A stretch of DNA of 64,000 nt from an uncultured virus (IMG/VR IMGVR_UViG_3300044645_000935) (taxonomy: Duplodnaviria > Heunggongvirae > Uroviricota > Caudoviricetes > Crassvirales): the IMG/VR virus record IMGVR_UViG_3300044645_000935. One strand, given 5' to 3'. The position numbers and the translations under genes are program-made. Shown piece after piece: positions 10,128-61,981 of this stretch. Under the pieces are notes generated by a model. The model was given only the letters and a program-made list of their open reading frames with translations. It was not told the origin of the DNA and ran no database searches. Within the stretch, counting starts at the first letter, position 1, and each line of letters opens with the position of its first letter.

Positions 10128-10129
10128 AA

Positions 10130-10489: not shown

Positions 10490-10501
10490 AATAAAAATAA
10501 A

Positions 10502-10645: not shown

Positions 10646-10649
10646 TAAT

Positions 10650-10892: not shown

Positions 10893-10896
10893 TTAA

Positions 10897-17103: not shown

Positions 17104-17121
17104 AATGTCGAAATAATTAAT

Positions 17122-17129
17122 TAAGTTTG
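17122..17129 (+). promoter_or_regulatory. Bacteroidota -7 promoter element
   Basis: TAAGTTTG intergenic before scaffold/capsid. Confidence 0.55.
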
Positions 17130-17149
17130 TACAAATAAAATCTAATAAA

Positions 17150-18244: not shown

Positions 18245-18264
18245 AACTTAAAAACTAAAAAACA

Positions 18265-19683: not shown

Positions 19684-19696
19684 TAAGTAAATAGAT

Positions 19697-19729
19697 GGGG
19701 GGTGTCTTTAAAGACACTCTCCTCTTTTT
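19697..19729 (+). terminator. Intrinsic terminator
   Basis: GGGGGGTGTCTT-TA-AAGACACTCTCC then T run. Confidence 0.8.
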
Positions 19730-19761
19730 AAAATTAAGAATCGAATTAAATCAAATAACAA

Positions 19762-20502: not shown

Positions 20503-20524
20503 AATGATTGATTGATTGGTTAAT

Positions 20525-20555
20525 AAGGGGGGCATTGATATGCCTCCTTTTTTTT
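20525..20555 (+). terminator. Intrinsic terminator
   Basis: AAGGGGGGCAT-TGAT-ATGCCTCCTT then T run. Confidence 0.8.
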
Positions 20556-20558
20556 GTT

Positions 20559-20566
20559 TATATTTG
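20559..20566 (+). promoter_or_regulatory. Bacteroidota -7 promoter element
   Basis: TATATTTG upstream of 20582. Confidence 0.55.
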
Positions 20567-20581
20567 TAAAAAGGCGAAAAA

Positions 20582-21520
20582 ATGATAAACTCTGTTAGGA
20601 ATACGGTACTATCCGTTTTGAACAAGAACAACTACGGCTACATTTCCCCGTCAGATTTTAATTTGTTTGCGGCAAATGCACAGATGCAAATCTTTGAGGA
20701 GTATTTCGACAGCTATAACAAAGTTATAAATGCCGAGAATGCTAGAATGGCAGGCACAGATTATGCTGATTTAGAGCAGCCAATGTCTGAGACAATTGAA
20801 ACATTTCTTAGGACAGATTACTTGACTAAAATTTCTGCTAATAAATTCTCAGCTCCATCACTTACCACTACAGGATTTAATTCTTACTATATTTTAGATG
20901 TTGTATGTAAGCCTGTGATTTTAGCTATAGGTACAAACACATCAGTATCGTCAGGTCAGCTAGTAAATACAGCAGGAGCATTCTTGTCTAAAGGAATTGT
21001 TCCCGGGGATATTGTCACCAATCTTACTACAGGATTGGTATCTGTGGTTGTATCAGTATTGAATAATACAACTATTCAACTAGAGTCAAACATATTCTTG
21101 GCATCAGGTAATTCCTATGGAATATTTTCATCTGCATCTTTGGTTGAGGCTGAGAAGGTGAGCAATGGAAATATTAATTTGTTGAACAACTCAAATCTTA
21201 CCGCTCCTACAATTCAGTTTCCTGCTTACACATTGAAGGGAGATGTTATTACGATTTATCCTACATCTATTCAAAATAAGGGTCAGGTTGAATGTACATA
21301 CTTTAGATTTCCTAAAACGCCAAAATGGACTTACCTTACTTTGTCTAGCGGAGAACCTGTATTTGACCAATCACAGTCCGATTATCAGGATTTTGAATTA
21401 CCACAGGAAGACGAATACAAATTAGTAACTAGAATATTGCAGTACTGCGGGGTGTCAATTAGAGAAACTGAGGTTACTCAGTTTAGTATGGCAAAAGAAC
21501 AGCAGGAGGAAAATCCATAA
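20582..21520 (+). CDS. Probable head-tail adaptor / tail tubular protein
   Basis: Position; YFRFPKTPKW and FELP motifs. Confidence 0.6.
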   Translation: MINSVRNTVLSVLNKNNYGYISPSDFNLFAANAQMQIFEEYFDSYNKVINAENARMAGTDYADLEQPMSETIETFLRTDYLTKISANKFSAPSLTTTGFNSYYILDVVCKPVILAIGTNTSVSSGQLVNTAGAFLSKGIVPGDIVTNLTTGLVSVVVSVLNNTTIQLESNIFLASGNSYGIFSSASLVEAEKVSNGNINLLNNSNLTAPTIQFPAYTLKGDVITIYPTSIQNKGQVECTYFRFPKTPKWTYLTLSSGEPVFDQSQSDYQDFELPQEDEYKLVTRILQYCGVSIRETEVTQFSMAKEQQEENP

Positions 21521-43343: not shown

Positions 43344-43564
43344 CCGTTTTCTATGTTTATATCGTTATCGTATAGAATTTCTCTCAATCTGTTTCTGCAA
43401 CTCTGATAGGTTTGGTACTGCTCGTCAGTCAGGTCCTCGTACTTTATCTTACTTCTTAACCATTGGTCGTACTCCCATAGAGTTGAGCGCATATTCGCTC
43501 CATCTATGGAATTCTTCCACTCATGGTAATCCTCAGGTAAATTAAAGATTAGTTTTGCTTTCAT
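43340..43564 (-). CDS. Conserved hypothetical phage protein (MKAKLIFNLPED type)
   Basis: Recognised motif; coupled. Confidence 0.75.
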   Translation of the reverse strand: MKAKLIFNLPEDYHEWKNSIDGANMRSTLWEYDQWLRSKIKYEDLTDEQYQTYQSCRNRLREILYDNDINIENG

Positions 43565-44745
43565 AAAAGTCTTTTTTAAAGTGATTGATAGTGTAGTCTT
43601 TCTTCTTTGTTACTGCCTTGTATATGTCCCGTTCAATACCTCCTTCTGAGAATATCCAATAGACCTTATTATCTAGTCTCTCCTTGGTTGTCATCCTGTC
43701 CTTGCTCTGCCAATAACTCGTGGCACTAAAGTCAATGTTGTAATACACCAAGTAGTCAGCCTGACGTAGGGATATCCCTTCTCTGCCCGACACAATCTGT
43801 AAAGCAATGTGCTTATTAGTGTCTTCGAACACGCTCAGCTCATTAGTCAGCTCATCACCAAACACTTGCTTCAAGGCGTTATACTCTTCTTTAAATTTAT
43901 AGAATATCCCTATCTTACTTCCTTGAAATTTTTGTTTAATGAACTCCGCCTTGGTGGTGTCCAAAACCATGCTGTTCCCACTCTCAAACTTAATTGTCCC
44001 ACTAGATATCTGATGTACCTTCATCATTAATTTCACGGGAGTGTCTGCTAGTATGGTCTCTTCCTTCCCCTCTACCACTAAGTCACGCTTCAGTTTGTCA
44101 ATCAACCTGTAGGTTGACTCTTTCATGGGGACATATAAAACTTCCTCCTCAACTTGCGTTACAAAACCTGCCTCAGACTGCGTGTAGTTTATGGTGTATG
44201 GTTTCATTGCCTCAACAATAGACTCAAGCCCATGGCTGTAGTCATTCATCAGCAGTCCATTGATTTTCTTTTGCTTCACATTAACATACTTGTCGCAGAA
44301 TCTGTAGAAGTTTGAGAACTCATCGAATGGATTGTTTGGTATGGCATACACCTGATGGTACATCTGAGAATAACTTTCTTATTACTTGAGCCACCAATAA
44401 AGCTCTGCCGCTAGGCTTAGGGAAAGCCCCCATGCTGTGTGCCTCATCGCAGATAATTAGGTCCCACTTCTCATTGTCCATCACCAAGTGAAGGCTCTCG
44501 TAGTTAATCACAGTCAGATGATAATATGGTTTCAATACTTTGTAGTCTGCTTCAATCGTACTAATTGCTTTTTTCTTAGTAACGAACAGCACCCGCTCAG
44601 CCTCTATCCTTTCTGCAATACCTAGACTCGTGAGAGTCTTGCCTGTCCTTACCTCCATTGCTAGATATAAGAACCCATGCTCGTTTAGAATACGGGAGCC
44701 TTTCTCAATTATATCGGTTTGGTAATCCCTGAAATTGAATTTCAT
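43542..44745 (-). pseudogene. SNF2-type (SF2) helicase interrupted by a deletion/frameshift near 44375
   Basis: RDYQ, MEVRTGKT, CDEAH in one frame; ESYSQMYHQ..GREGISL..QSKDR in another; motif III (SGTP) missing. Confidence 0.75.
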
Positions 44746-44958
44746 TTGATTTAATTTTTTGTAGTGTTCGCAGCTGCGCAATATTTTATCTAGAACGTCT
44801 TGGTCTACTTTGTACTTTGGCACCTTGATAGTCTCTACCTTCTTGCCTCGACCAATCTTAGTGTCGTTGGTCTGAGTAATTATTGATTTCAAAGTTTCAC
44901 AATAGTGCAACATTGCCTCGTTACTATATCCTGCAATCCGCTCTACTATATTTTTCAT
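44746..44958 (-). CDS. Hypothetical segment in frame with the helicase N-terminus
   Basis: No stop before MKFNFRDYQ; may be a fusion. Confidence 0.5.
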
Positions 44959-48025: not shown

Positions 48026-48054
48026 AAAAAAAAGGGAGAGATTTTCTCCCCCTT
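48026..48054 (-). terminator. Intrinsic terminator after ssb
   Basis: AAGGGGGAGA-AAA-TCTCTCCCTT then T run on - strand. Confidence 0.75.
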
Positions 48055-48064
48055 AGTTTGCCTA

Positions 48065-48364
48065 TTAGAACGGCAGGTCACCATCATCCTCGGGCTCGGG
48101 TAGTACTACCTTTGCTTGTGGCTTTGGTGCCGCTTTGCTAGGAGCTTGCTGTGTTGTTGGCTCGTAGGTATCGAGTTCAACATAGTGGTTACCACTTCTA
48201 GCGGTCTTGATGTTTAGGTTCACCCAACCATTCTTCTGATGGTCTTTAATGAATGCTACCGCATCATCAACCTTTAGTGATAGTCTCCCTACTACAAAGT
48301 CAGGAGCCTTTTCGTTTCTCTTGAAGGAGAAACCTTCTGCAAAGATTTTTTCATCTTGTGCCAT
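48065..48364 (-). CDS. Probable single-stranded DNA-binding protein
   Basis: KAPDFVVG; acidic tail EDDGDLPF; next to SSAP/exonuclease. Confidence 0.7.
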   Translation of the reverse strand: MAQDEKIFAEGFSFKRNEKAPDFVVGRLSLKVDDAVAFIKDHQKNGWVNLNIKTARSGNHYVELDTYEPTTQQAPSKAAPKPQAKVVLPEPEDDGDLPF

Positions 48365-48385: not shown

Positions 48386-48438
48386 GCCTCAGTCTATTTG
48401 AACCAACCACCTACCTCTAAGGCTAAGCAGATGATTGG
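48386..48438 (-). promoter_or_regulatory. Predicted H-type pseudoknot in ssb leader
   Basis: 14-bp GU-containing stem; loop GCCUUAG pairs with downstream CUGAGGC. Confidence 0.6.
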
Positions 48439-48484
48439 ATATTTATCCAAATCGTGCATTAAATTACACTTTTGGCAATTTATG

Positions 48485-48560
48485 TAGTCAGGGCAGGACT
48501 CGAACCTGATAAGCAACCTCAAAGGATTTGGCTACCTTGCCGCATTACGCCCACCTGACT
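48485..48560 (-). ncRNA. tRNA-like RNA with non-canonical D and anticodon arms
   Basis: Acceptor AGUCAGG/CCUGACU, T-arm CAGG-UUCGAGU-CCUG; 11-nt central loop; no CCA. Confidence 0.65.
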
Positions 48561-48567
48561 AGTACTC

Positions 48568-49338
48568 TTAAATTAGGAACTCATCAATGAAGTAATTATC
48601 AATGTTGTCCGTAGGCTTGCTCCCGAAGTACTTAGAGAAGACTTCTATGGCTCGGGCTACCTTACGCTCACCTGACTCGATAAACTCGGGAGATGGCTTA
48701 AAAATACCTAGAACTCCTGTTGTCTTGTCAATGGCATAGAACACCAAAGGCTTACCAAATAATTGCTGATAAATATAACACTGCGAATCGTAGTTGTATG
48801 CCTTCGCTGAGTATTTAAATTTCTGAATGTCGCCTGTGGTCTTCAAGTCAATCAAGAAATCCTTACCAACGATGTCAGCCTTACCCTTCCACATCATCCC
48901 TTGAATCTGTCCCACAGCGGGAACCTCAAACTGATTACCCTCTCTGTAAATCTCATCGTAAAATGTGATATTGCTTTTCATAATACTAACCAACTCCCTC
49001 ACCTCATCCTGCTCTTTCTTTAGCATACAGAACGGAAGGTTATTTGTCTCGCAGTAGTTCTTGTACTCCTTGGTATTCCTAGTGCTCACATCAACGAAAG
49101 GTGTAGCCTCTGCCTTCTCAGGCTCAAGCAACAACTGATGGAAGAATCGCCCATCCATGAAAGCCTTGCTATCCTCTCTTGACTTACCGAATTCCTTCGG
49201 GTTTGTAAGCAAGGTCCCAATGTCTGAGTTTGATAGGTAGTTCTTGCCTACCCCACCATAGTACTCTTTGTCATCATTAAGGAGAGCCAAGATATTTGGC
49301 TCCCCTGTTAGGTCAATTGTCTCTAGCAATGTCTTCAT
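48568..49338 (-). CDS. RecE-like PD-(D/E)XK exonuclease (DUF3799-like)
   Basis: LSNSDI, WKGKAD, IDLKTT, YDSQCYIY. Confidence 0.8.
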   Translation of the reverse strand: MKTLLETIDLTGEPNILALLNDDKEYYGGVGKNYLSNSDIGTLLTNPKEFGKSREDSKAFMDGRFFHQLLLEPEKAEATPFVDVSTRNTKEYKNYCETNNLPFCMLKKEQDEVRELVSIMKSNITFYDEIYREGNQFEVPAVGQIQGMMWKGKADIVGKDFLIDLKTTGDIQKFKYSAKAYNYDSQCYIYQQLFGKPLVFYAIDKTTGVLGIFKPSPEFIESGERKVARAIEVFSKYFGSKPTDNIDNYFIDEFLI

Positions 49339-49970
49339 TACTTCAACAAGTCTACAACTGCCTGCTTAACTTCATTGGTCATGCTGTACTTTCTGTTTAA
49401 CTGCTGACCAATCTTTCCAATGCCCAACTCTTTGTTGGCATTCACATACTTCACTACGCTCTTCCAATTGTCTGAGCCAATAACCAACTCAATCAACTCT
49501 GCGCTAGGCTTAGCCTTGGCAGGAGCAGGAGCAGGTGCTGATGTCTCAACCTCAGGCAAGTCCTCTCCTGCAAATATGTAGATGCCCAATCCAAACATGG
49601 CTAGGTTCTTAACCAAGCATCGCATGATGGTCTTGTTGATGTCGAATGTAGTTGCCGCTTCAACACTCTTTACCCCATACTTGGTGGTGTACTCATAAGA
49701 ATGTTTCTTCATGGACTTATTCTTGCCGTCCATCACAGGCAACCACATCTCTAGGGTCTGCCCTTCAATGGTTACTTGAGTGTGGCACATGAATCCTAGA
49801 GCCTCATCGTAATCTGTAGGCAGGATTTGATAGGATGCATCGGGACATTCTTTCTTTACAACGGACCAAGCCCATGCCCATGATAGGTAGGTAAGTCCGT
49901 CTTTCTTTTCAACGTACTCATTTACATTGATGGCTGATAGCCTTTCGAAAACTGATTTGTTTTGTGTCAT
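49338..49970 (-). CDS. Sak/Rad52-like single-strand annealing protein (DUF1071-like)
   Basis: LTYLSWAWAW, MWLPVMD, MRCLVKNLAMFGLGIYIFAGEDLP. Confidence 0.85.
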   Translation of the reverse strand: MTQNKSVFERLSAINVNEYVEKKDGLTYLSWAWAWSVVKKECPDASYQILPTDYDEALGFMCHTQVTIEGQTLEMWLPVMDGKNKSMKKHSYEYTTKYGVKSVEAATTFDINKTIMRCLVKNLAMFGLGIYIFAGEDLPEVETSAPAPAPAKAKPSAELIELVIGSDNWKSVVKYVNANKELGIGKIGQQLNRKYSMTNEVKQAVVDLLK

Positions 49971-49983
49971 TTGATTTGATTGA

Positions 49984-50244
49984 TTAAAGTAATTCTAAGA
50001 TGTATTCGGTAATGTAGTATTTCATGTCATCGTCAAGAAGGATGTCTTCGTATTCTCCCTCCTCATTTGTTTTAAGAAACGCTGTAGTGTGAATCAATTT
50101 CACCTTTGTTTCTCCCCAAGGTGGGCTGTCGTAGTCTCCGTCCTCATCAAAGGATTCAACTCTGTAGTCGCCTTCCCAAATGTAATCTGAGTCCCCGTAA
50201 CTGAACTCAATTGATTGGTCGTAAAACTCTTCTGATGTGTACAT
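49984..50244 (-). CDS. Acidic hypothetical protein
   Basis: ORF; GDYDSPP motif. Confidence 0.7.
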   Translation of the reverse strand: MYTSEEFYDQSIEFSYGDSDYIWEGDYRVESFDEDGDYDSPPWGETKVKLIHTTAFLKTNEEGEYEDILLDDDMKYYITEYILELL

Positions 50245-50255
50245 ACTAGATTGGA

Positions 50256-50558
50256 TTAAATAAATACTGCACGCTCTACTTCCTTGACTACTGATACGTA
50301 GTCCTTATCCTCTGCGATTCGTTTCTCGACCGCAGATATCCCATGAATAATTGAAGGATGCGAAATGCTGTACCCTGCATCATTCATGTACCGCTCGATG
50401 TAAGTAATTTGCATCGGTCTCTTGGCACATAGGTAGTAGACCAATTGTCTAGCGTCTACTATGGCCCGCTTCTTTGTCTTGGAGAAGAAGTCCTCCTTGG
50501 TAATACCGAACAGGTCCACGACCCGCTCTACGTACTGATTAAACACTTCATGTTTCAT
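50256..50558 (-). CDS. DnaA C-terminal-domain-like HTH protein
   Basis: SKTKKRAIVDARQLVYYL...SHPSIIHGI. Confidence 0.75.
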   Translation of the reverse strand: MKHEVFNQYVERVVDLFGITKEDFFSKTKKRAIVDARQLVYYLCAKRPMQITYIERYMNDAGYSISHPSIIHGISAVEKRIAEDKDYVSVVKEVERAVFI

Positions 50559-50583
50559 GGATGTAAATATATTAAATTGTTAA

Positions 50584-50829
50584 TTACTTGTATATTTTTT
50601 GCTCGACTTTTTTTAAATAAAGTTCCATCTCAACAAGTTCTAGGTGCTTGCTTCGGTTGGTGTTGCATTCGTAGAATGTCCCATCGAAAAGAACTTGGAT
50701 GTAGTTTCCGTCATTGTAAAGCAATACATCATCACAAGCACCTTTTAATTCTGCGTTTGGATGTAGTTTCTTGAATTCATTTCTAGTGTAGGACTTTTTT
50801 GAGTCCAACCAATCTTTAAGTTTTCCCAT
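50584..50829 (-). CDS. Hypothetical protein
   Basis: ORF track. Confidence 0.65.
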   Translation of the reverse strand: MGKLKDWLDSKKSYTRNEFKKLHPNAELKGACDDVLLYNDGNYIQVLFDGTFYECNTNRSKHLELVEMELYLKKVEQKIYK

Positions 50830-50841
50830 AATTTAATTAGA

Positions 50842-51156
50842 TTATTTCTCGTTCAATTCTGATTTCAATTTTTGGATGTACAACGTAGCGTCCATCAGTT
50901 CCTCCTGTAGATGATTAAGCCACTCAATTAGAGTGGCCTTATTATCCTCAAGCGTGGTCCCATACTTTAGAATCCCAACCCTAGACCTAGTGTCAAACTT
51001 GTTGACCACTTGCTCTACAATTGGGTCATGGTATTCTCTTATGGTCTTGGCTTCATTTAGATACACGTCCAAGTCCTTCTCAGATAGTTTGAATCCATCC
51101 TCCAAGTGATGTCTTATCCTGCTTGCAAACCAATCAATTTGCGTTAGCCTACCCAT
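50842..51156 (-). CDS. MazG-like / dNTP pyrophosphohydrolase-like helical protein
   Basis: GILKYGTTL..WLNHLQEELMDATLY. Confidence 0.6.
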   Translation of the reverse strand: MGRLTQIDWFASRIRHHLEDGFKLSEKDLDVYLNEAKTIREYHDPIVEQVVNKFDTRSRVGILKYGTTLEDNKATLIEWLNHLQEELMDATLYIQKLKSELNEK

Positions 51157-51535
51157 AGACTACCTCCCCCAACGCTAGGTATTGAAACACGACATCTGCC
51201 GACTCTGAATCCCCGTTCTCCTCCATGTGAGCAATTAGGTAGTGACGCTCATCGCTAGTCGCTAACTTGCTTAGCCTGTCTGCCATTGTCTCTAGGCTTA
51301 TTAAACCAATCTGCTCCTCGATATCCTCTGCGTCATGGATAGGGACCTCAACTCCTTTCATTACAGCCTTAAATGTGGCTACAGATAGGCAAGACTCCTC
51401 TTCTCTAGGGACAGCATTTCTTATCAATCCTACGGCATTTCTGCTTAGGTGGTACCAATAGTTGCTGCCGCCCTCGATGGCTGTTACGAATACGTCCTCT
51501 AGGACTGACTCGTCAATTTCAATTTGAATTTTCAT
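51149..51535 (-). CDS. Conserved hypothetical phage protein (TAIEGGSNYW type)
   Basis: Recognised motif; ends GEVVYG. Confidence 0.75.
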   Translation of the reverse strand: MKIQIEIDESVLEDVFVTAIEGGSNYWYHLSRNAVGLIRNAVPREEESCLSVATFKAVMKGVEVPIHDAEDIEEQIGLISLETMADRLSKLATSDERHYLIAHMEENGDSESADVVFQYLALGEVVYG

Positions 51536-51542
51536 ATTGATA

Positions 51543-51887
51543 TTATTTTTGTTCTACTTTAAGACTTAATCCATGTTCATCAAGAAAAGTTATCACTTCA
51601 AGCAATCCCTTTTTACCAAAATTTCTTATTTTAATTAGGTCCCTTTCTGAGCGTTGAATTAAGTCCTCTAGTGTTCGTATATCATTGGCTTTAAAACAAT
51701 TGTACGTTCTAACAGAGAAATCTAATTTATAGATAGGGGTTTTAAGGAAGTCGTTTATTTCAAAAAACTTCTTTCTTTTTTCTTGATTACCATGGAATAG
51801 CATTATATCTATTACTTTTTCTGCTATTTTTTCAACTAATGTATCTACATCAACAGATGTAAATACTAAATTTTCAGTTCTGTTCAT
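51543..51887 (-). CDS. RNA polymerase alpha C-terminal domain homolog
   Basis: LDFSVRTYNCFKANDI..LIKIRNFGKKGLLEV matches alpha-CTD. Confidence 0.85.
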   Translation of the reverse strand: MNRTENLVFTSVDVDTLVEKIAEKVIDIMLFHGNQEKRKKFFEINDFLKTPIYKLDFSVRTYNCFKANDIRTLEDLIQRSERDLIKIRNFGKKGLLEVITFLDEHGLSLKVEQK

Positions 51888-52164
51888 TCTCTACTTGCTT
51901 TTTGATTTTTTGAATTAATTTGATTACTAAGTCCTGCTCTTTTGAAGTTATGTTGTCAGCATAGTACAACGCATCAGATACTGATTCTAGGGTGTGCTCG
52001 AGGTCCATGTTATCGGGCACCTCGATTGTGATTGTTACTTTCATTTGAATTTTTTGTAGATGATGTAAAATAAAAGACCTATGTGAAGGCCGATGTAAAT
52101 GGTAATGGCCAAGGGGACCGACACAAAAAAGAATTTTGCTAGGTCCCCCAAGATTGCCATGAAC

Positions 52165-52386
52165 CTATTCATCTTGCCCCCTATTTACCATAAACTCACT
52201 CTCGATATCAAAATTATCTAGGTCATGCTCGCTGACCATACCTCTGATTAAATACACGTCAGAGTTACCCGTAGTCCTAGCGTAAAACTCATTAGTTTTA
52301 AGTAGTTCATTCCACTCGTTTGCTAACTCTGTCGCATCCTGCGGTGTCCCCACAAAGAATGTAGATACTTCGATGTTCTTTTCCAT
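52165..52386 (-). CDS. Hypothetical protein
   Basis: Coupled ORF. Confidence 0.65.
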   Translation of the reverse strand: MEKNIEVSTFFVGTPQDATELANEWNELLKTNEFYARTTGNSDVYLIRGMVSEHDLDNFDIESEFMVNRGQDE

Positions 52387-52829
52387 TAGATTACAATTTT
52401 TTTAGGTTGTACTTCAATTATAATATTCTCTTGATACACGTACTCAAGTTCATCCACTAGTCTAGCGTTGTCATACTCCTCATCAAACTCACGCTCTCGC
52501 ATGACAATGGGTGTAATCACCTCAACTATTTGACTCTCGGTCAAGTCTGTCGCAATCACGAAGTTCTCTTCATTAAATGCTGTGGTGCTGATTTCAAATG
52601 AATTGAATCTTCTAGGGTCATTTAGCGACACGTAGCCAACCTCTATTCCTATCTCAAGGCCATGCTTCTCTACTATCTCAAGTGCGGTGTCAATCCCGTA
52701 CCCGTAAACCGAAGCCTCAGAGCCGTCATCGTATATGATAAACAACTCAAACAGGTCAGAAGCCCATATCTCTCTTGCTTTGTGGGTTACAATTAACCAC
52801 ACGAATCCGTCAATAATTCTAATGTCCAT
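52386..52829 (-). CDS. Hypothetical acidic protein
   Basis: Coupled ORF. Confidence 0.7.
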   Translation of the reverse strand: MDIRIIDGFVWLIVTHKAREIWASDLFELFIIYDDGSEASVYGYGIDTALEIVEKHGLEIGIEVGYVSLNDPRRFNSFEISTTAFNEENFVIATDLTESQIVEVITPIVMREREFDEEYDNARLVDELEYVYQENIIIEVQPKKIVI

Positions 52830-52831
52830 GT

Positions 52832-53197
52832 CTAGAAGGATTTTTTAACTTTTAACAATCTGTGAGCAAATAGGCCATGATTACCGCATCCAATATAATT
52901 TGACTCTTGGTCAATAAGCGCGGTAACTTTTAAGACATCGCCTCTTTTTGGTGGGTTCTCTACGAGTTCTGTGTCGTCTAGAACCACGACAATGTCTCCA
53001 ACGCAAAGCGGGTTTCCATCGAAGTCATGGAATTGCAGGTCGATTAACAGGTCGCTGATTTCATCAATGTCGTGGTCATCTGCCCACCTGTTAAGGATTA
53101 CTTCTAGTATGTCCCTGTCGGATAAAGTACTAGATACTCTGTTGAAGTGTGTAACTACCCCGAAGTCGTGGCCATTACGTGTGTCTAATTGAATCAT
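52832..53197 (-). CDS. Hypothetical protein
   Basis: ORF with AAAACACC leader. Confidence 0.7.
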   Translation of the reverse strand: MIQLDTRNGHDFGVVTHFNRVSSTLSDRDILEVILNRWADDHDIDEISDLLIDLQFHDFDGNPLCVGDIVVVLDDTELVENPPKRGDVLKVTALIDQESNYIGCGNHGLFAHRLLKVKKSF

Positions 53198-53231
53198 TGG
53201 TGTTTTGGTTAGGATTTAAACTAATTGTATT

Positions 53232-53262
53232 CGAAAGTAATTCGAGAAATATACTTATCAAA
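53232..53262 (-). promoter_or_regulatory. Bacteroidota sigma-A-type promoter
   Basis: TTTG-N19-TACTTTCG. Confidence 0.65.
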
Positions 53263-53428
53263 ATAAATTGAATTATTTTTTTACTCTAGCAAGTAATTCG
53301 CTACGTTTTATTGGATGGACGTACTTTGCGCACGCCCTGTCAATTGCCTCGAATGTGGAGGATGCTATGCCCTCCCAAATCAATTCCTTGCTTATCCACA
53401 CGGAGTAATAATTTTTCTTTTCCACGGC

Positions 53429-53713
53429 CTATTTTGTTTTAGTTAGATTAAATGGTACCCCATCCAAGCCCAACTCAAAGGTATATCCCTTGGATTCTAG
53501 AATCTGTAGGTACTTGGCGCCCGTCTCGTAGTCGTATCCTTCACGCTCAAATTGGCTCAGCACATTTTGAATGCACAGCGGGAGCGTTTCGATTGTTTCG
53601 AATAGGTCCACATCTTTACAATTACCGCAAAGGTCCCCTTCAAACCACATATCATGGCGTCCCTGTGGGTGCCCACATTCTGAGCAGGTCCACACATCAT
53701 TTGGCTTAGTCAT
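53429..53713 (-). CDS. Hypothetical protein with CxxC..CxxC
   Basis: Start MTKPND. Confidence 0.65.
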   Translation of the reverse strand: MTKPNDVWTCSECGHPQGRHDMWFEGDLCGNCKDVDLFETIETLPLCIQNVLSQFEREGYDYETGAKYLQILESKGYTFELGLDGVPFNLTKTK

Positions 53714-53909
53714 TTGGTCTCTTGGTGAATAGTAAAACAAAAGCCATCACAGACAGAAAACTAAGCAGGAACCCAACGAATACTAGGTCCACAACCGCAC
53801 TAAAAGTGAACTCGGGAGTGTCCATGAGTAACTTGGTATACAATTTAATCGATGCACCTATAGTGAACAGGTAGCAAAGGGTAAGCAAAACTTTTTCAAC
53901 TTTTTTCAT
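53706..53909 (-). CDS. Small two-TM membrane protein (start MKKVEK)
   Basis: Two hydrophobic helices; ATG downstream of hammerhead. Confidence 0.65.
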   Translation of the reverse strand: MKKVEKVLLTLCYLFTIGASIKLYTKLLMDTPEFTFSAVVDLVFVGFLLSFLSVMAFVLLFTKRPND

Positions 53910-53936
53910 GGTATTAAAATTTGCAGATTTATAATG

Positions 53937-53985
53937 CCGTTTCATCCTTTTGGAATCTTCAGTCGGGACACCCATCCCGATACGG
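53937..53985 (-). ncRNA. Type III hammerhead ribozyme
   Basis: CCG-UA^-UCGGGA-UGGGUG-UCCCGA-CUGAAGA-UUCC-AAAA-GGAU-GAAA-CGG. Confidence 0.8.
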
Positions 53986-54010
53986 GGGAGCCCATGCAGG
54001 GCCCCCGACC

Positions 54011-54211
54011 TTAGCCTTTCTTTAGATTTAAGTTAGTTGGATAATAGCGCACGCCAATGGCGTCCGTCTCGGAATTGATGTTGAATTTCTCATGCAGGGC
54101 CTCAAGTTCCTGCAGGTATTGAGCGCCTTGCTCAGCATCCAATCGGGTTAGGCGGTCGATTACTTCTTGAATCAAAACACGTCTCTTTTCATAATTAACT
54201 TGGTAAAACAT
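54011..54211 (-). CDS. Hypothetical early protein
   Basis: ORF track. Confidence 0.65.
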   Translation of the reverse strand: MFYQVNYEKRRVLIQEVIDRLTRLDAEQGAQYLQELEALHEKFNINSETDAIGVRYYPTNLNLKKG

Positions 54212-54229
54212 AGTAGTAAGGGGTTTTGG

Positions 54230-54436
54230 TTATTTGTTTATTTTTAAGTCCTCATTATACAACCAATCGCCTGTCTTTAGGCCATTGGCAATCTCTTCGG
54301 CATACATATACTCGTAGGTAACCTTGCCGACCTTTACGTGGTATGTCTTACGACCTTCCACCTCACCTGCATTCTGAATCACAACCTTTTTTTGGTCGCA
54401 TCCAAATAGACATAAGAAAATTAGTAGTGCTTTCAT
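54230..54436 (-). CDS. Small putative lipoprotein
   Basis: MKALLIFLCLFGC short lipobox-like leader. Confidence 0.55.
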   Translation of the reverse strand: MKALLIFLCLFGCDQKKVVIQNAGEVEGRKTYHVKVGKVTYEYMYAEEIANGLKTGDWLYNEDLKINK

Positions 54437-54439
54437 GGC

Positions 54440-54649
54440 TCAGATATTATTTTGGTAGCAAAAGTTGTCAAAGTAGGCGTTCTCTTGAGCCTCCACATAG
54501 GCCAATTCAAGGGGCCTGTCGGCAATCCTGTAGTACTTTGAATCCTTGCAGTACGCCTTACCTTCAAAGTAAAATCGGTCGCCTTTGTTGATTGTTTGGC
54601 CCGTCTCAGCGCACTTGCTTTTGAATCGAGCAGTTAGGAATCGTCCCAT
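54440..54649 (-). CDS. Small conserved phage protein (TARFKSKCAETG type)
   Basis: Recognised motif. Confidence 0.7.
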   Translation of the reverse strand: MGRFLTARFKSKCAETGQTINKGDRFYFEGKAYCKDSKYYRIADRPLELAYVEAQENAYFDNFCYQNNI

Positions 54650-54671
54650 AGTTTTAGTTGTTTTAATATAT

Positions 54672-54968
54672 TTATATAGTTATATACTTTTTATAATCTA
54701 GTACTTCGTTATCGTCCATGTACCAAATCTTTTCACACTCGTTGAATGTCTTGAAATAGTAAACATCTTCCAATCTTGCACACATAAATATTGGCCGCTC
54801 AATTCCTTGATACATCATGTATGTTAATTCAATGCCATCCATGACTATCCAACATTGATTTTCCGATTCAGCCGTGTACTCAATTTTTCTTCCATTACAT
54901 TGCTGATAATAGATTTCAAACAATATCCGCATTTTTTGTTCGCTTGACATTTTATTAAAATTTTGCAT
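54672..54968 (-). CDS. Hypothetical early protein
   Basis: ORF track. Confidence 0.65.
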   Translation of the reverse strand: MQNFNKMSSEQKMRILFEIYYQQCNGRKIEYTAESENQCWIVMDGIELTYMMYQGIERPIFMCARLEDVYYFKTFNECEKIWYMDDNEVLDYKKYITI

Positions 54969-54976
54969 AGTTTTAG

Positions 54977-55246
54977 TTATTTTAAATAGCCTTCAATTTG
55001 TTTTAATACATTCCATGCCCCGCCATAACTTCGGTCTTTTTTGCCCGTATCTTGGCTGTATTTATGGTTGAAAAATACCTCAGCATTTTCATCTTGCCCA
55101 TAGACCATAAAGTTGTAATACACATGGGAATTTTTGCGATTCAACTTGAATCCAAATATTCTAAAGCCGTTATTTAAATCGGCCCAATGTATTCCCGTAA
55201 ATTTAGGATTACTACGTACGGATTTTTCTAATTCAAATAGTTTCAT
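54977..55246 (-). CDS. Hypothetical early protein
   Basis: Conserved leader AAACACCTAAAA. Confidence 0.7.
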   Translation of the reverse strand: MKLFELEKSVRSNPKFTGIHWADLNNGFRIFGFKLNRKNSHVYYNFMVYGQDENAEVFFNHKYSQDTGKKDRSYGGAWNVLKQIEGYLK

Positions 55247-55261
55247 GATTTTTTAGGTGTT

Positions 55262-55837
55262 TTAGTTATGGTATTTTAAAATGATTTTGCTAGAAATATT
55301 TGTCCCATTTAGGTAATTGGTACCAAAGGTTGAATCGAATTCATTAAGCAGGTCGTATACTTGGTCCTTAGTCCTGCAGGTACCAATCAAAAATGAGTTA
55401 GGGAATTTCATCTCCCAATCACTTCTTGGTGTATACTTTGTACATCTATGAGGGCCCCATAGGAAATATGGCTCGCAATTATATCCCTCATATACATCGA
55501 AGGCTTCTTGTTCCTCAGAATTAAGCAAAAGGATTACTTCAATTTCAGTTACATTTTGATTGATGCTTTTATAAAAATCAATCTTCCAAATTAGGAATTT
55601 CCATACTGCTTGATATACATCTTCTATGTAACCAAATGGGAGCACATTTTCTAACTGCTTTATGTACTCGGGAGCCAATGTAAACCATTTTTCTTCTCGC
55701 ATGATTTTAGCCACTACGGGCATAAGCCAATCCCATGATTCATGGTATTTTAATGCAGAGATTGAATCTTCTTTTGGCTTCATAAAATCAGCGATAACTA
55801 AGTTTTTTTGCTGAATACTGAATAGATTTTCGGTCAT
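55262..55837 (-). CDS. Hypothetical early protein (YHESWDWLMPVV motif)
   Basis: Recognised phage motif; conserved leader. Confidence 0.75.
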   Translation of the reverse strand: MTENLFSIQQKNLVIADFMKPKEDSISALKYHESWDWLMPVVAKIMREEKWFTLAPEYIKQLENVLPFGYIEDVYQAVWKFLIWKIDFYKSINQNVTEIEVILLLNSEEQEAFDVYEGYNCEPYFLWGPHRCTKYTPRSDWEMKFPNSFLIGTCRTKDQVYDLLNEFDSTFGTNYLNGTNISSKIILKYHN

Positions 55838-55877
55838 AATTTTAGGTGTTTAAGTTGATTAAATTGATTTAAAATTG

Positions 55878-55919
55878 CACCCTTTCGCAATCAAATGCCA
55901 CGCTCATAGGCGAAGGGTG
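55878..55919 (-). ncRNA. Three-way-junction motif, copy 1
   Basis: CACCCUU-[CGC CUAUGA GCG]-UG-[GCA UUUGAU UGC]-GA-AAGGGUG. Confidence 0.65.
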
Positions 55920-55924
55920 TATAC

Positions 55925-56152
55925 TTATTTTGCGACCTTCTCCAATTCCTCAATTAAATCCATTTTCCAATATCCGCACATATTTTCAACACCAAATATG
56001 GTCATTGCAAGGTCTTGAATCCCATAGGCTTTCCCCCTATAATGAGCCGACATTTTTTCGTCATTTTTTGAATCGAAATAATCGACCATGGTTGAATAAA
56101 CTCTAAGAGAACTTGCTAGTTCTTTTGCCAATGTTTTTTTGTTTACTTTCAT
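55925..56152 (-). CDS. Hypothetical early protein (start MKVNKK)
   Basis: ATG follows conserved leader. Confidence 0.7.
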   Translation of the reverse strand: MKVNKKTLAKELASSLRVYSTMVDYFDSKNDEKMSAHYRGKAYGIQDLAMTIFGVENMCGYWKMDLIEELEKVAK

Positions 56153-56187
56153 GATTTTTAGGTGTTTAAGTTGATAAATAAAGTTTG

Positions 56188-56231
56188 AACCAATGGAGGG
56201 ATTCGAACCCTCCTTAATTCCAAAATTGGTT
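56188..56231 (-). ncRNA. tRNA minihelix-like element (acceptor-like stem + T-arm)
   Basis: AACCAAU-11 nt-GGAGGG-UUCGAAU-CCCUCC-AUUGGUU. Confidence 0.65.
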
Positions 56232-56423
56232 TTATAAATTGACCTTGTTTGCAAGCCATAATTCATGGCCTGCAGTTATTAAGGAATCGGCCTGCCTAGT
56301 GGTAAGGCCAAGTTCTAGACCTATGCTTCGGGCTCCGTTACCAACTACATAGTTTAGATGGAAGCATTTTATTACTAGGTCTATGCCCCATTTTTTGATG
56401 GCGATTTTTGATTTGTTAGTCAT
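56232..56423 (-). CDS. Small HTH-like early protein
   Basis: ARSIGLELGLTTRQAD. Confidence 0.65.
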   Translation of the reverse strand: MTNKSKIAIKKWGIDLVIKCFHLNYVVGNGARSIGLELGLTTRQADSLITAGHELWLANKVNL

Positions 56424-56446
56424 GTTTTTTGGTGTTTAAGTTTAAA

Positions 56447-57157
56447 TTAATGCTCCAATATTTGGATATTTTTGGTGCCCTTTCTATGGCCACTGCAAAG
56501 GCCACATTTCTCGCACGTAGACTTGAAGCCCGCCTCTTTACTTGCAGGGCAAACTACAGCACCTACCAAGGGCTTGTCCGTAGCAATAAACGAACGGAAG
56601 CCTAGATTTTTTGCTTGGTTGGATTGGATTTCGCTGTGAGTCGAAGCCATGAAGTATACAGAGTAGTCGGGCTTTTTGGCCCATTGGTGAGTATATCCTG
56701 TATGGCTTTTGCTCGCTTTAACCATGTCAGATACTAGGTCCAATGGCACCAAAGTAGGCTCTCCATAGGTCCCAAATCGAATGTACTTGCCTGCAGACAT
56801 TTCAACTATTTTGCTTTCTAGCAAGTGCACAGAAGGGATTTCCTGCACGTTTTGAAACTCACGTGCAATTGATTTAAGCATAGAAACGAAGCCCGAATAC
56901 TGCTGATATTTATGGGTATAACATTTCAAGTAGGCTCTAAATGGGCAATCAAAACATACAGAGTCGGCAAGGTCAAAAAACGTTTTAGGCTCAATTTTTT
57001 TGCCGTTTTTTACCGACTCAGATACGTAGTTGAATTGAGAATCTGAGAAACTATATACCTGCAAAATTTTCTCTGTGCCATTTGAAATTTTGGCATTGGT
57101 GGTCCTGTCTAGTTTAAATACTAAAATGGCGCCATTTACTTTCGTAGTTACTCGCAT
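56447..57157 (-). CDS. Cys-rich Fe-S/radical-SAM-like (Gp88-like) protein (start MRVTTK)
   Basis: CFDCP..CY, IRFGTYGEP, TGYTHQW, CPA..CEKCGLC. Confidence 0.6.
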   Translation of the reverse strand: MRVTTKVNGAILVFKLDRTTNAKISNGTEKILQVYSFSDSQFNYVSESVKNGKKIEPKTFFDLADSVCFDCPFRAYLKCYTHKYQQYSGFVSMLKSIAREFQNVQEIPSVHLLESKIVEMSAGKYIRFGTYGEPTLVPLDLVSDMVKASKSHTGYTHQWAKKPDYSVYFMASTHSEIQSNQAKNLGFRSFIATDKPLVGAVVCPASKEAGFKSTCEKCGLCSGHRKGTKNIQILEH

Positions 57158-57187
57158 AGGTGTTTTGGTTTTGGTTAAATTAAAGTT

Positions 57188-57231
57188 TGGTTCCCGCTCG
57201 CAATCGAATGCCACATCTTAAATGGCGGGAA
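57188..57231 (-). ncRNA. Three-way-junction motif, copy 2 (ends in CCA)
   Basis: UUCCCGC-[CAUU UAA GAUG]-UG-[GCA UUCGAU UGC]-GA-GCGGGAA-CCA. Confidence 0.65.
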
Positions 57232-57982: not shown

Positions 57983-58013
57983 CAATAGTAGTACTTTTCT
58001 TTATTCTGTGCAA
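57983..58013 (-). promoter_or_regulatory. Putative early promoter
   Basis: TTGC-N19-TACTATTG. Confidence 0.55.
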
Positions 58014-59860: not shown

Positions 59861-61489
59861 ATGGTAGAGACATCAGGATTGGGCTATTCGCCCAAGGACT
59901 TAAAGTTTGGTACTGAAGGCAGGACCAAATTGATTAACGGCATTGTAAAGATGTCGAAGGCTGTAAAGTCAACTCTCGGCCCTTCGGGTAACACGGTATT
60001 AATCGAGAGTGCAAACCACACACATGGTGTTACTGTTACTAAGGATGGCGTTACTGTCGCCAAGTCAATTGACTTGATTGACCCGGTAGAGAACCTTGCG
60101 GTTCGCATGATGAAGGAGGCGGCCGATAAGACTGCTACATCTGCGGGTGATGGTACGACTACTGCAATCGTGCTTACAGAGGGCTTGGTGCTTGGTGGGC
60201 TTGAGCGCATTACTGAGGACATGAACAGGACTGCTGTGTTGAGACACATGGTGGACATCAGTAACAAGGTGGTGGACAACTTAAGAAAGAAGAGCAAGAA
60301 GGTAACGACATCTATGTTAGTAGATGTGGCCGCTATTTCAGCAAACAATGACCGTGAGATTGGTAAGATTATTTCTGATGTATACAAAGAGGTTGGTAAG
60401 AACGGTGTTGTAACTGTAGAGAGAAGCCAAACGAATGAGACATACTCTGAGACCACCAAGGGATTGCAGATTAATAGGGGTTATTTGAGCCCATTGTTCA
60501 TCAATGATGCAAAAAAAGACGAGTGTATCTTTGATGATGTGATGGTATTGGTAGCTGACATTGAGATTGCCAACATTTTGCAGATTGAGAACGTGCTAAA
60601 ACCAATAATTTCAGAGGGAAAGAAGCTTTTGATTATTTCTCCATGCAATGTGAATGTGATTAACACGCTTGCGGCTAACAGTGTGAAGGGGAATTTGAAG
60701 GTTTGTGCTGTTCCTCCGCCAAATTTCGGATACAAGCAGCATGAATTGATGCAAGATATTGCGTTGAGTGTAGGAGCTACCTACTTTAGTGAGAAGACGG
60801 GTGATGATTTGAGTCGAATCAACTACGGTGACTTGGGTCATGCGGCAAAAGTTATTGTCAGCAAGGACAAAACCATCATTATTCGCAGTAACGCAAAAGT
60901 TGACCAAGGGTCAATTGACGAAAGGGTCAAGCAATTGTGGCAAGCACATGAGCAAGCTACTCGTAAGGCTGACAAAGACTTCATCTTGGAGCGTATTGCC
61001 TCACTTACAGGTGGCATTGGTGTTATTTTTGTAGGTGGTCAGACTGACATTGAGCAGAAAGAGTTGTATGACCGTGTTGATGACGCTGTGTGTGCGGTTC
61101 GTTCAGCTCTTGAGGAGGGTATATTGCCGGGGGCAGGAGTAGCATTGCTTAATGAGAGTGCTGAGATTCCATCTGTTCAGCATCCTCTTACTCATCCAAG
61201 CAAAGAGTATGTCGCTGCAGTAAGCATTGTCACTGAGGCATTGATGGCTCCGTTCCAACAGATACTTGCTAACGCAGGGTTAAAGCCAAGTGAAGTGTAT
61301 AAGATGGATATACCTATAGGTTACGGCTACAATGTCAAGACAGGACAGATGGGTGACCTTATTGAGATGGGTGTCATTGACCCGTTTAAGGTAACACGTA
61401 GCGCATTGCAAAACGCTGTCAGCGTGGCAACAACTATTCTATCAACTAACGCCATCATCACAATGGCACGGAGCTATGAGCAACAATAA
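59861..61489 (+). CDS. groEL: Chaperonin GroEL (phage-encoded)
   Basis: TLGPSG, TKDGVTVAK, AGDGTTTA, GILPGAG, GVIDP..V.RSAL. Confidence 0.95.
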   Translation: MVETSGLGYSPKDLKFGTEGRTKLINGIVKMSKAVKSTLGPSGNTVLIESANHTHGVTVTKDGVTVAKSIDLIDPVENLAVRMMKEAADKTATSAGDGTTTAIVLTEGLVLGGLERITEDMNRTAVLRHMVDISNKVVDNLRKKSKKVTTSMLVDVAAISANNDREIGKIISDVYKEVGKNGVVTVERSQTNETYSETTKGLQINRGYLSPLFINDAKKDECIFDDVMVLVADIEIANILQIENVLKPIISEGKKLLIISPCNVNVINTLAANSVKGNLKVCAVPPPNFGYKQHELMQDIALSVGATYFSEKTGDDLSRINYGDLGHAAKVIVSKDKTIIIRSNAKVDQGSIDERVKQLWQAHEQATRKADKDFILERIASLTGGIGVIFVGGQTDIEQKELYDRVDDAVCAVRSALEEGILPGAGVALLNESAEIPSVQHPLTHPSKEYVAAVSIVTEALMAPFQQILANAGLKPSEVYKMDIPIGYGYNVKTGQMGDLIEMGVIDPFKVTRSALQNAVSVATTILSTNAIITMARSYEQQ

Positions 61490-61727
61490 TATTCAACAAA
61501 TAATTGAGATGTATCCTGAAGAGACATTTCTTGTTGCTGATGGTTTTGATGATGCCATCATTGGCATTGACGAGGAGAACGGGAAGATTGTGTATGACAT
61601 TGACAAAGTCATCACAATACTGATGAGGGATGACATGAGCATGGACGAGGCTTATGAATTCTATTACTACAATATTGTTGGCTCTTATGTTGGCGACAAT
61701 ACTCCTATCTTTATAAGAACACTATGA
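61476..61727 (+). CDS. Conserved acidic phage protein (ADGFDDAIIG type)
   Basis: Recognised motif; between groEL and groES. Confidence 0.8.
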   Translation: MSNNNIQQIIEMYPEETFLVADGFDDAIIGIDEENGKIVYDIDKVITILMRDDMSMDEAYEFYYYNIVGSYVGDNTPIFIRTL

Positions 61728-61981
61728 GACCAATAGGGAAATACATTGTCGTTAGAGACATACAAGAAGAGGTTCGGACCGAGAGTGGTCTGATACTGTC
61801 GGGAGAAGATACCAATCAGCTAAGGTATAAGAGAGCTGAGGTGATAGCCCCGGGTACTGATGTTGATGTGATTGACGAGGGTGATGAGCTGTACTACGAC
61901 AAGGCACACAGCTTCACCATGTTGATTGACGATACGCAGTATACGATTATTCAAGAGAGAGATGTAGTAGTGGTGATTTAA
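61724..61981 (+). CDS. groES: Co-chaperonin GroES
   Basis: MRPIGKYIVV, TESGLIL mobile loop, EGD, ERDVVVVI. Confidence 0.9.
   Translation: MRPIGKYIVVRDIQEEVRTESGLILSGEDTNQLRYKRAEVIAPGTDVDVIDEGDELYYDKAHSFTMLIDDTQYTIIQERDVVVVI

What the first reader, a model, noticed from the sequence alone, without database searches (positions are those of the whole stretch)
48386..57231. Early/middle operon punctuated by different structured RNA modules at stop-codon junctions
Seen: five - strand junctions carry a compact structure starting 0-7 nt after a stop codon: three-way junctions (57188, 55878), a T-arm minihelix (56188), a hairpin plus hammerhead (53937-54010) and a tRNA-like RNA (48485). None has a clean terminator U-tract, and most are followed by an A-rich leader and the next ATG. 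Established: hammerheads self-cleave, and RNase P/Z recognise acceptor stem plus T-arm. Inference: these are interchangeable RNA cut/stabilise cassettes that segment a polycistronic early transcript, analogous to T7 RNase III sites but built from ribozymes and tRNA mimics.
Basis: partly seen in the sequence, partly recalled or inferred. Interest (0 to 1): 0.88.

Follow-up and report, generated by a model that had tools for sequence, protein, structure and literature searches.

The report
Phage mini-tRNA and hammerhead junction cassettes
A freshwater phage family places either a self-cutting hammerhead RNA or one of three stripped-down tRNA look-alikes between its early genes, probably to cut one long message into separately protected pieces; the tRNA look-alikes appear to be undescribed and their cutting is not yet shown.

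Summary
All five elements are real, lie on the coding strand 0-7 nt after stop codons, and are the only hits of their descriptors in the 64 kb. The hammerhead is a type III ribozyme about 90% identical to the Bruynoghevirus one; PaP3's copy is listed as active in Perreault 2011. The two 'three-way junctions' are a 41-nt mini-tRNA family absent from Rfam: 7-bp acceptor-like stem, 3-bp D-like hairpin, 5-bp T-like arm, with an unselected loop-loop pair that is G-C or A-U in 43 of 43 variants (the tRNA-elbow G19-C56 pair). The minihelix keeps a D-loop-like TGG (15 of 15). Relatives hold 127 distinct modules, none antisense, and one gene junction carries a hammerhead in four phages and a tRNA mimic in a fifth. 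Hammerhead processing of phage transcripts is already proposed in print; RNase P cutting of the mimics is inferred only, and no RNA data were available.

The parts
57188..57231 (-). Mini-tRNA three-way junction A (7-bp stem, 3-bp hairpin with loop ending in G, 5-pair T-like arm with loop UUCGAU), then CCA
   Evidence: (68.5 bits with model R1, which was built with it)
56185..56231 (-). T-arm minihelix C (7-bp acceptor-like stem, unpaired linker with TGG, 6-bp T stem, canonical 7-nt T loop), then CAA
   Evidence: T arm matches the tmRNA T arm
55875..55919 (-). Mini-tRNA three-way junction B (hairpin loop ends in A, T-like loop UUUGAU: the A-U version of the loop-loop pair), then CAA
53986..54006 (-). 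G+C-rich hairpin ending 5 nt before the hammerhead cut; would end the upstream RNA
53937..53985 (-). Type III hammerhead ribozyme, cut predicted between 53981 and 53980, U10.1-U11.1 mismatch in stem II
48482..48560 (-). Degenerate tRNA E: intact acceptor stem, D-like arm and T arm, broken anticodon arm; A73 then CAT
48386..48438 (-).
   Evidence: 18 distinct versions, all before this gene family
48065..48364 (-). 99-aa gene with acidic C-terminal tail ending in LPF, after Sak and exonuclease; SSB-like by inference only
   Evidence: no family or fold match
48032..48054 (-). Intrinsic terminator-like hairpin with U tract closing the unit
48568..49970 (-). Sak single-strand annealing protein and exonuclease VIII-like genes directly upstream of E
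57983..58013 (-). Bacteroidota-type promoter-like site upstream of the first early gene (consensus recalled, no shuffle control)
53232..53261 (-). Second promoter-like site in the only large gap without a module (consensus recalled, no shuffle control)

Best explanation
The modules are cis-acting RNA processing cassettes of the early/middle transcription unit of an uncultured, probably Bacteroidota-infecting podophage family. Each cassette is stop codon - structured module - A-rich leader - ATG. The hammerhead cuts itself: the upstream message then ends in the hairpin, and the downstream message starts with a 5'-OH and the stem I hairpin. The three tRNA mimics keep only the top half of tRNA (about 12 stacked pairs, T loop, D-loop/T-loop elbow, 3' N-C-N) and have lost or freed the anticodon arm, so they are most likely cut by the host's tRNA end-processing enzymes, RNase P at the 5' side first, with 3' trimming possible. 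The result is gene-sized or few-gene messages with protected ends, letting the phage tune stability and translation of small early genes that are shuffled between genomes. Shown: structures, covariation, placement, strand, swapping. Known by close analogy: self-cleavage of this hammerhead type. Inferred: RNase P/Z cleavage, stabilisation, and any effect on expression.
For: Elbow pair G-C 30, A-U 13, discordant 0 of 43 distinct 3WJ variants (26; 17 more, three of them read by eye because the script's register slipped); this pair was not part of any search pattern. T-like stem changes compensatorily in variants, and the G.G position becomes U.G or U-A in three. TGG in the linker of 15 of 15 minihelices, not required by the descriptor. 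C at position 74 in 34 of 34 tRNA-like and 16 of 16 3WJ modules. tRNA-like modules range 62-174 nt with covarying acceptor stems, so the anticodon part is free. RNase P measures 12 bp from the elbow and cuts acceptor/T-arm model substrates (PMC11143913, PMC4919913 passages). Hammerhead 93.6% identical over 47 nt to Bruynoghevirus copies; PaP3 copy has the same U.U pair and is in the figure of active variants. Extra hairpin before the cut in 53 of 53 type III, 0 of 9 type I, 17 of 275 control junctions. ATG within 50 nt after 52/53, 9/9, 16/16 and 14/15 modules. Swap: between the same two genes (67% and 80-85% identity) L158, L162, L165, L168 have hairpin+hammerhead and L164 a tRNA mimic. In five 55-68 kb records all 16 modules cluster within 11 kb on one strand.
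Against: No transcript ends were observed; the two runs found were contigs only. The 3WJ departs from tRNA: 6-nt T loop, a G.G pair, 14 rather than 16 nt from A58 to the conserved C, and CCA in only 2 of 16, so RNase P efficiency is uncertain. 0 of 16 3WJ and only 5 of 15 minihelices have a hairpin before the predicted RNase P cut, so their upstream RNAs would be unprotected. Only one swap has both flanking genes conserved; the others share one flank at 44-49% identity. 15 of 67 loci have no module. The hairpin usually contains a clade-wide palindrome that stands alone in 79 of 137 occurrences, so it may have its own role. P1/P2 and hammerhead pairing percentages are partly by selection.
Confidence: 0.6

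Rival explanations
1. The tRNA mimics are products in their own right: excised, CCA-completed small RNAs that act as decoys or ligands for host tRNA-binding factors (anticodon-nuclease or tRNA-sensing defences, Ro60-like proteins, modification enzymes); cutting the mRNA is a by-product, and hammerheads share the junctions only because that is where non-coding space is.
For: C74 kept in all classes suits trimming plus CCA completion. tRNA-like E occurs in tandem copies in L002, L004, L015, L174 and is often far from stops and starts; ARAGORN such copies tRNAs in 34 loci. YrlA Y RNAs mimic the same D/T/acceptor half and one is cut by RNase P and gets CCA (PMC4201824 passages).
Against: 3WJ and minihelix sit tightly between stop and leader like the hammerheads and one mimic replaces a hammerhead at the same junction. 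They lack the anticodon loop that anticodon nucleases attack. No Ro60-like gene among the window proteins scanned (26 and 50 proteins, not all ORFs).
Confidence: 0.15
2. The tRNA mimics are not cut; they are compact folds that stop 3'-to-5' or 5'-to-3' exonucleases, or pause, terminate or antiterminate transcription, and so give stable ends without an endonuclease.
For: The 3WJ begins 5-14 nt after most stops with no protective hairpin in front, as expected if it is itself the 3' cap of the upstream message; atypical T loop and rare CCA.
Against: A mere roadblock needs neither a fixed stem length (14 nt from A58 to C74 kept across different T-stem builds) nor C74; no U tracts; equivalence with a self-cleaving ribozyme points to cutting.
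Confidence: 0.13
3. The 3WJ is a new small self-cleaving ribozyme or ligand-binding RNA and only looks like a tRNA elbow.
For: A 16-nt core is invariant in the 26 main-set copies (by search pattern) and the motif clusters with hammerheads in L075, L090, L128, L177, L182, L195, L201, L205, L208.
Against: Model-found variants change most core bases while keeping the stem, T loop and elbow pair; the minihelix and E, plainly tRNA-like, occur in the same clusters (L086, L093, L182, L204).
Confidence: 0.07
4. The elements work at DNA level (repeats for recombinational shuffling of early genes, or att-like tRNA relics) or are neutral relics.
For: Early genes are shuffled and modules come and go at junctions; contigs of relatives join across E and from B to a later gene (single contigs, weak).
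Against: Compensatory changes and a tertiary pair are RNA-level selection; both acceptor strands covary, unlike an att remnant; strict sense orientation.
Confidence: 0.05

Closest known systems
Clustered hammerhead ribozymes flanking phage/prophage genes (Perreault et al. 2011, PMC3088659; sections 6 and 8, passages, supplement S6 read)
   Same: Hammerheads between single genes or short blocks, flanked genes not constant, proposed to process long phage transcripts; near-identical type III ribozyme with U10.1-U11.1 in PaP3.
   Different: The sections read do not mention a fixed upstream hairpin or tRNA mimics in the same slots; in Bruynoghevirus phiIBB-PAA2 the hammerhead precedes the first gene rather than following a stop codon.
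T7 and SPO1 RNase III sites in early transcripts (recalled, not read here)
   Same: Host-enzyme cut sites between early genes that leave structured ends.
   Different: Long irregular hairpins cut by RNase III; here ribozymes and tRNA-shaped substrates.
Mitochondrial tRNA punctuation and MALAT1 mascRNA/menRNA (recalled; PMC11693755 seen as listing and start of abstract only)
   Same: tRNA or tRNA-like folds used as RNase P/Z cut signals inside long transcripts; shrunken anticodon arm in mascRNA.
   Different: Eukaryotic or organellar; here a bacterial virus, 41-44 nt with no anticodon arm at all, and exchangeable with hammerheads.
Bacterial YrlA Y RNAs (PMC4201824, passages)
   Same: Mimic D arm, T arm and acceptor stem; one is cut by RNase P and gains CCA; also in phages.
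   Different: Y RNAs have a Ro60-binding stem and lie beside Ro60 genes; neither seen here, and no Rfam hit.
RNase P-processed phage RNAs: P1/P7 C4 antisense RNA, phi80 M3 RNA, T4 tRNA cluster (PMC11143913, passages)
   Same: Host RNase P cutting phage non-tRNA RNAs.
   Different: Single regulatory RNAs or true tRNAs, not repeated intergenic cassettes.
Theta ribozymes of gut phages (PMC10879173, abstract)
   Same: Phage ribozymes standing in for protein enzymes of tRNA end processing.
   Different: HDV-like, adjacent to true tRNAs and tied to recoding; here hammerheads and mimics sit at different junctions.
T4 gene 32 autoregulatory pseudoknot (PMC3014915, passages; further candidates in PMC10690425, passages)
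   Same: H-type pseudoknot followed by an A-rich unstructured leader before a putative SSB gene (element 48438-48386).
   Different: Unrelated sequence, longer first stem, and the protein is not shown to be an SSB.

Membership tests
Hammerhead ribozyme, type III | Core CUGANGA / GAAA / NUH with stems I-III, stem III open | tested here: met
   CUGAAGA, GAAA, GUA; stems 6-8, 4 and 4 pairs; the fold with stem III is within 0.3 kcal/mol of the MFE
Hammerhead ribozyme, type III | G10.1-C11.1 pair | tested here: not met
   U.U here and in 7 of 32 aligned relatives; a described natural variant that retains activity, so it does not exclude membership
Hammerhead ribozyme, type III | Covarying stems in homologues | tested here: met
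   11 of 14 pairs change on both sides, 98.2% paired, 32 of 53 sequences (those of equal length), slid controls 36-47%; set selected by a pairing descriptor
Hammerhead ribozyme, type III | Rfam RF00008 gathering score | tested here: not met
   no hit for the window copy; relatives score 24-47 bits, cut-off 48.5
Hammerhead ribozyme, type III | Self-cleavage | not testable with these tools
   near-identical PaP3 RNA is among active variants
tRNA (functional adaptor) | Cloverleaf with 5-bp anticodon stem and 7-nt loop | tested here: not met
   A, B, C have no anticodon arm; E's is broken; ARAGORN 0
RNase P substrate (tRNA top half) | About 12 stacked pairs from T loop to 5' end | tested here: met
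   A, B 7+5 including one G.G; C 7+6; E 7+5 with one mismatch
RNase P substrate (tRNA top half) | T loop and G19-C56 elbow | tested here: met
   43 of 43 Watson-Crick in 3WJ; TGG linker 15 of 15 in minihelices; the 3WJ loop is 6 nt, not 7
RNase P substrate (tRNA top half) | 3' RCCA | tested here: inconclusive
   only A has ACCA; C74 conserved, position 75 mostly A or T
RNase P substrate (tRNA top half) | Cleavage by RNase P or RNase Z | not testable with these tools
   no RNA reads
YrlA Y RNA | Ro60-binding stem, adjacent Ro60 gene, Rfam match | tested here: not met
   no Rfam hit; no Ro60 family among scanned neighbours
Intrinsic terminator | G+C hairpin followed by U tract | tested here: not met
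   one search lists none at the five modules
Gene 32-type SSB autoregulatory pseudoknot (element 48438-48386) | H-type pseudoknot plus A-rich leader | tested here: met
   18 distinct versions, stem 1 of 7-14 pairs with changing sequence, 16-22 nt before the ATG
Gene 32-type SSB autoregulatory pseudoknot (element 48438-48386) | Downstream protein is an SSB that binds it | tested here: inconclusive
   acidic LPF tail and gene order only; model pLDDT 52, best Z 6.2 (rmsd 2.9, 65 aligned) to an unrelated chain

The most novel reading that the evidence does not exclude
Bacterial viruses practise tRNA punctuation of mRNA with a graded toolkit that runs from decayed tRNA genes through minihelices to a 41-nt elbow-only mini-tRNA, all read by host RNase P, and these are drop-in alternatives to self-cleaving hammerheads. 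The choice of cassette would set the end chemistry (5'-OH versus 5'-phosphate) and hence the lifetime of each early gene's message, and mass expression of mimics could also tie up the host's tRNA maturation.
Probability: 0.5. Interest if true: 0.86.

Novelty: new variant of a known kind. Interest (0 to 1): 0.73.

Why it matters
The biological role of small ribozymes in phage genomes has been a proposal since 2011. Natural swaps between a hammerhead and a tRNA mimic at one junction point to cutting as the shared function and give a direct test. The 41-nt junction is a new, strongly covarying RNA family that shows what nature keeps when tRNA is reduced to its elbow and acceptor helix, useful for RNase P/Z recognition studies and as compact insulator parts for Bacteroidota.

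Tried and rejected
Rfam: nothing over gathering score in the window; only tRNA hits in 8 related loci; nothing for the unclassified pseudoknot-like element of L002. Folding z-scan: none of the five among the top 45 windows, so energy does not mark them. RNA evidence: no RNA holder listed; the two runs were contigs, X1 probably DNA, no end table entries; not used for or against expression. Cultured phage with the 3WJ: none, only chance-level hits; genome contigs gave 4 pattern hits; those printed (L212, L213) do not fit the structure and none of L211-L214 passed the descriptor, so no prophage host. Sigma-70 promoter scan at chance level (25 vs 26.3). Idea that the GTGTC-N6-GACAC hairpin is a dedicated 3' cap: weakened, it stands alone in 79 of 137 occurrences. 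SSB identity of the 99-aa protein: Pfam, PHROGs, ESM Atlas and fold search uninformative. No whole genome was held and earlier scan findings were not available. Literature searches listed no paper describing these mimics as phage junction cassettes; the library lacks most subscription papers, and the alignment and position files of the 10,006 viral candidate RNAs of PMC10690425 could not be read, so the 3WJ or the pseudoknot may be there as an unnamed candidate. A search for C74 as an RNase Z antideterminant gave only the general CCA rule, so no claim of RNase Z exclusion is made. Rows left out of the 43-variant count: one weak model hit (L077, E 0.014) and duplicates; 10 of 36 distinct pattern cores failed the structure filter, two of which (L091, L189) were recovered by the model as variants.


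Full report
Setting. The window is most of an uncultured podophage-like genome: terminase, portal and virion genes on the + strand, helicase, primase-like, Sak and exonuclease genes and about 25 small unknown ORFs on the - strand. The nearest named record is an uncultured spring phage (77.6% in the 802-aa primase-like protein); the nearest cultured ones are Flavobacterium elemo phages (42.7% over 35% of it). A Bacteroidota host is inferred from this and from A-rich leaders without Shine-Dalgarno motif; it is not shown.

Observation. All five elements are present as described, 7, 0, 5, 4 and 7 nt after stop codons, without terminator U tracts. Descriptors for hammerheads, the junction and T-arm/acceptor folds hit exactly these five places on both strands of 64 kb, against 0.05 per shuffle (descriptors written after seeing them). 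Folding energy alone does not single them out (z -0.45 to -2.3), and Rfam and ARAGORN miss them.

The hammerhead (D). It has the full core in type III topology, with a U.U pair at 10.1-11.1. It is 90-94% identical over 47-50 nt to a sequence in many Pseudomonas Bruynoghevirus genomes (117 records matched in all). PaP3 has the same fold and U.U pair; Perreault et al. 2011 list PaP3 among active core variants and discuss the U.U mismatch, and they already proposed that clustered hammerheads process long phage transcripts. Relatives gave 53 distinct type III and 9 type I copies; in 32 equal-length type III copies 11 of 14 pairs change on both sides. A hairpin of -8 kcal/mol or better lies in the 40 nt before the cut in 53 of 53 type III, 0 of 9 type I and 17 of 275 module-free junctions. 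This is the pattern expected if the upstream product needs a 3' hairpin, which type I supplies from its own stems. A caveat: in 41 of 53 the hairpin contains a clade-wide palindrome that also stands alone in 79 of 137 occurrences; in the window and in L002, L003, L028-L032 and L172 other hairpin sequences take the same place.

The three-way junctions (A, B). Pattern scans of viral and metagenome contigs gave 36 distinct cores, 26 of which fit one fold: 7-bp stem, 3-bp hairpin, T-like arm, then C-N-A in nearly all. Stem covariation is extensive but partly selected. Not selected is a pair between the last base of the hairpin loop and the third base of the T-like loop: G-C 20, A-U 6, no other. 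A covariance model run over 91 sources (1.02 Mb, 70 matches) added 17 distinct variants, G-C 10 and A-U 7 (three read by eye). This is the position and nature of the tRNA elbow pair G19-C56; A and B in the window are the two versions. Variants also change the T-like stem compensatorily and turn its G.G pair into U.G or U-A, so the arm is a five-pair helix stacked on the 7-bp stem, and the distance from A58 to the conserved C stays 14 nt. The element is thus a tRNA top half of 41 nt with no anticodon arm. It differs from tRNA in a 6-nt T loop and a 2-nt shorter 3' strand. It occurs in other phage groups too, some G+C-rich with a Shine-Dalgarno-like leader (L050/L094/L136), and in up to four copies per record.

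The minihelix (C) and tRNA-like RNA (E). Fifteen distinct minihelices all carry TGG in the linker, which the descriptor did not ask for, a D-loop stand-in. Thirty-four tRNA-like copies span 62-174 nt with covarying acceptor stems and a free middle; some are still real or near-real tRNAs, so E is probably a decayed tRNA gene. C74 is kept in 34 of 34, in 16 of 16 junctions and in most minihelices, while full CCA is rare. RNase P measures 12 bp from the elbow and accepts acceptor/T-arm substrates; RNase Z and the CCA enzyme read the same half. That these enzymes cut here is inference.

Interchange. In 67 loci (952 kb, some overlapping) 52 hold modules, 127 distinct, none on the opposite strand; in five 55-68 kb records all 16 lie within 11 kb on one strand. 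A stop lies within 15 nt of the cassette in 44/53, 6/9, 13/16, 10/15 but only 6/34 (tRNA-like); an ATG follows within 50 nt in 52/53, 9/9, 16/16, 14/15 and 14/34. One clean swap: between the same two genes L158, L162, L165 and L168 carry hairpin+hammerhead, L164 a tRNA mimic. Looser swaps share one flank: minihelix (L019) versus type I hammerhead (L075); hammerhead versus junction (L140). Before the homologue of window gene 54440-54649 there is nothing in the window, a type I hammerhead in L019 and a hammerhead-like variant in L002-L004, and junction B in one contig of run X1 (weak). Modules are dispensable at single junctions, and 15 loci have none.

A sixth RNA. With its A-rich leader it resembles the T4 gene 32 operator. 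The protein's SSB identity rests on its acidic tail and gene order; structure searches were uninformative. In most relatives the pseudoknot begins right after the tRNA-like module, so 3' processing there would yield a message that starts with it.

Mechanism and rivals. Most likely (0.6 overall; about 0.9 for self-cleavage of D, about 0.55-0.6 for enzyme cutting of the mimics) the cassettes cut the early transcript and leave structured ends. Rivals: released decoy RNAs (0.15), uncut stabilisers or transcription signals (0.13), a new ribozyme (0.07), DNA-level repeats or relics (0.05). No RNA data could be had.

Novelty. Processing of phage polycistrons at cis RNA sites is a known kind, and the hammerhead is a known member. 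The mini-tRNA junction and TGG minihelix are not in Rfam and were not found in eight literature searches, with the caveat that the candidate alignments of PMC10690425 could not be read. Papers seen: PMC3088659 (sections 6 and 8, passages, supplement S6, supplement search); PMC11143913, PMC4919913, PMC3161902, PMC3014915, PMC4201824, PMC10690425 (passages; part of the last one's supplements); PMC10879173 (abstract); T7/SPO1 RNase III sites, mitochondrial punctuation, the Bacteroidota promoter consensus and the SSB tail motif are recalled. Verdict: real, a new variant of a known kind, interest 0.73.

Noticed in passing
window 48438-48386 (-): Covarying H-type pseudoknot before the acidic-tailed 99-aa gene, like the T4 gene 32 operator.
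   Followed up: partly
window 2890-2905 and 19702-19717; L175 (MW202828) 10012-21421: Palindrome GTGTC-N6-GACAC is a clade-wide repeat: 137 distinct occurrences, 79 without a module, 14 copies in MW202828, mostly before early genes, where the descriptors found no module; could be an operator or an RNA signal of its own.
   Followed up: partly
L002 16845-16915; also L003, L004, L015, L019: Unclassified pseudoknot-like RNA after a stop codon near the tRNA-like module; no Rfam match. Possibly another processing module.
   Followed up: partly
L002 11471-11523, L003, L004: Type I hammerhead-like element with a C.A mismatch at the base of stem II, before the homologue of window gene 54440-54649.
   Followed up: no
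L175 about 10030-10075: T-loop-containing stem right after the palindrome in MW202828, possibly a further tRNA-mimic variant missed by the descriptors.
   Followed up: no
phage collection: The hammerhead query also matched 35 Microbacterium, 5 Enterobacter, 2 Synechococcus and 2 Halovirus records, suggesting wide spread of this ribozyme type in early regions.
   Followed up: no
window 51543-51887 and 50256-50558 (-): Early genes with an RNA polymerase alpha C-terminal domain and a DnaA C-terminal helix-turn-helix domain: candidate host-takeover factors.
   Followed up: no
window 59861-61981 (+) and 11124-11684 (+): A 542-aa GroEL-like gene with a GroES-like neighbour (annotated so in the relative MW202828) and a second GroES-family protein.
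   Followed up: no
window 44320-44958 and 43542-44363 (-): The helicase gene is in two overlapping frames here, while relatives have one ORF of about 480-500 aa; L019, L025 and L027 are also split.
   Followed up: no
window 55170-57190 (-): A leader motif resembling AACTTAAACACCTAAAA recurs before several early ATGs.
   Followed up: no
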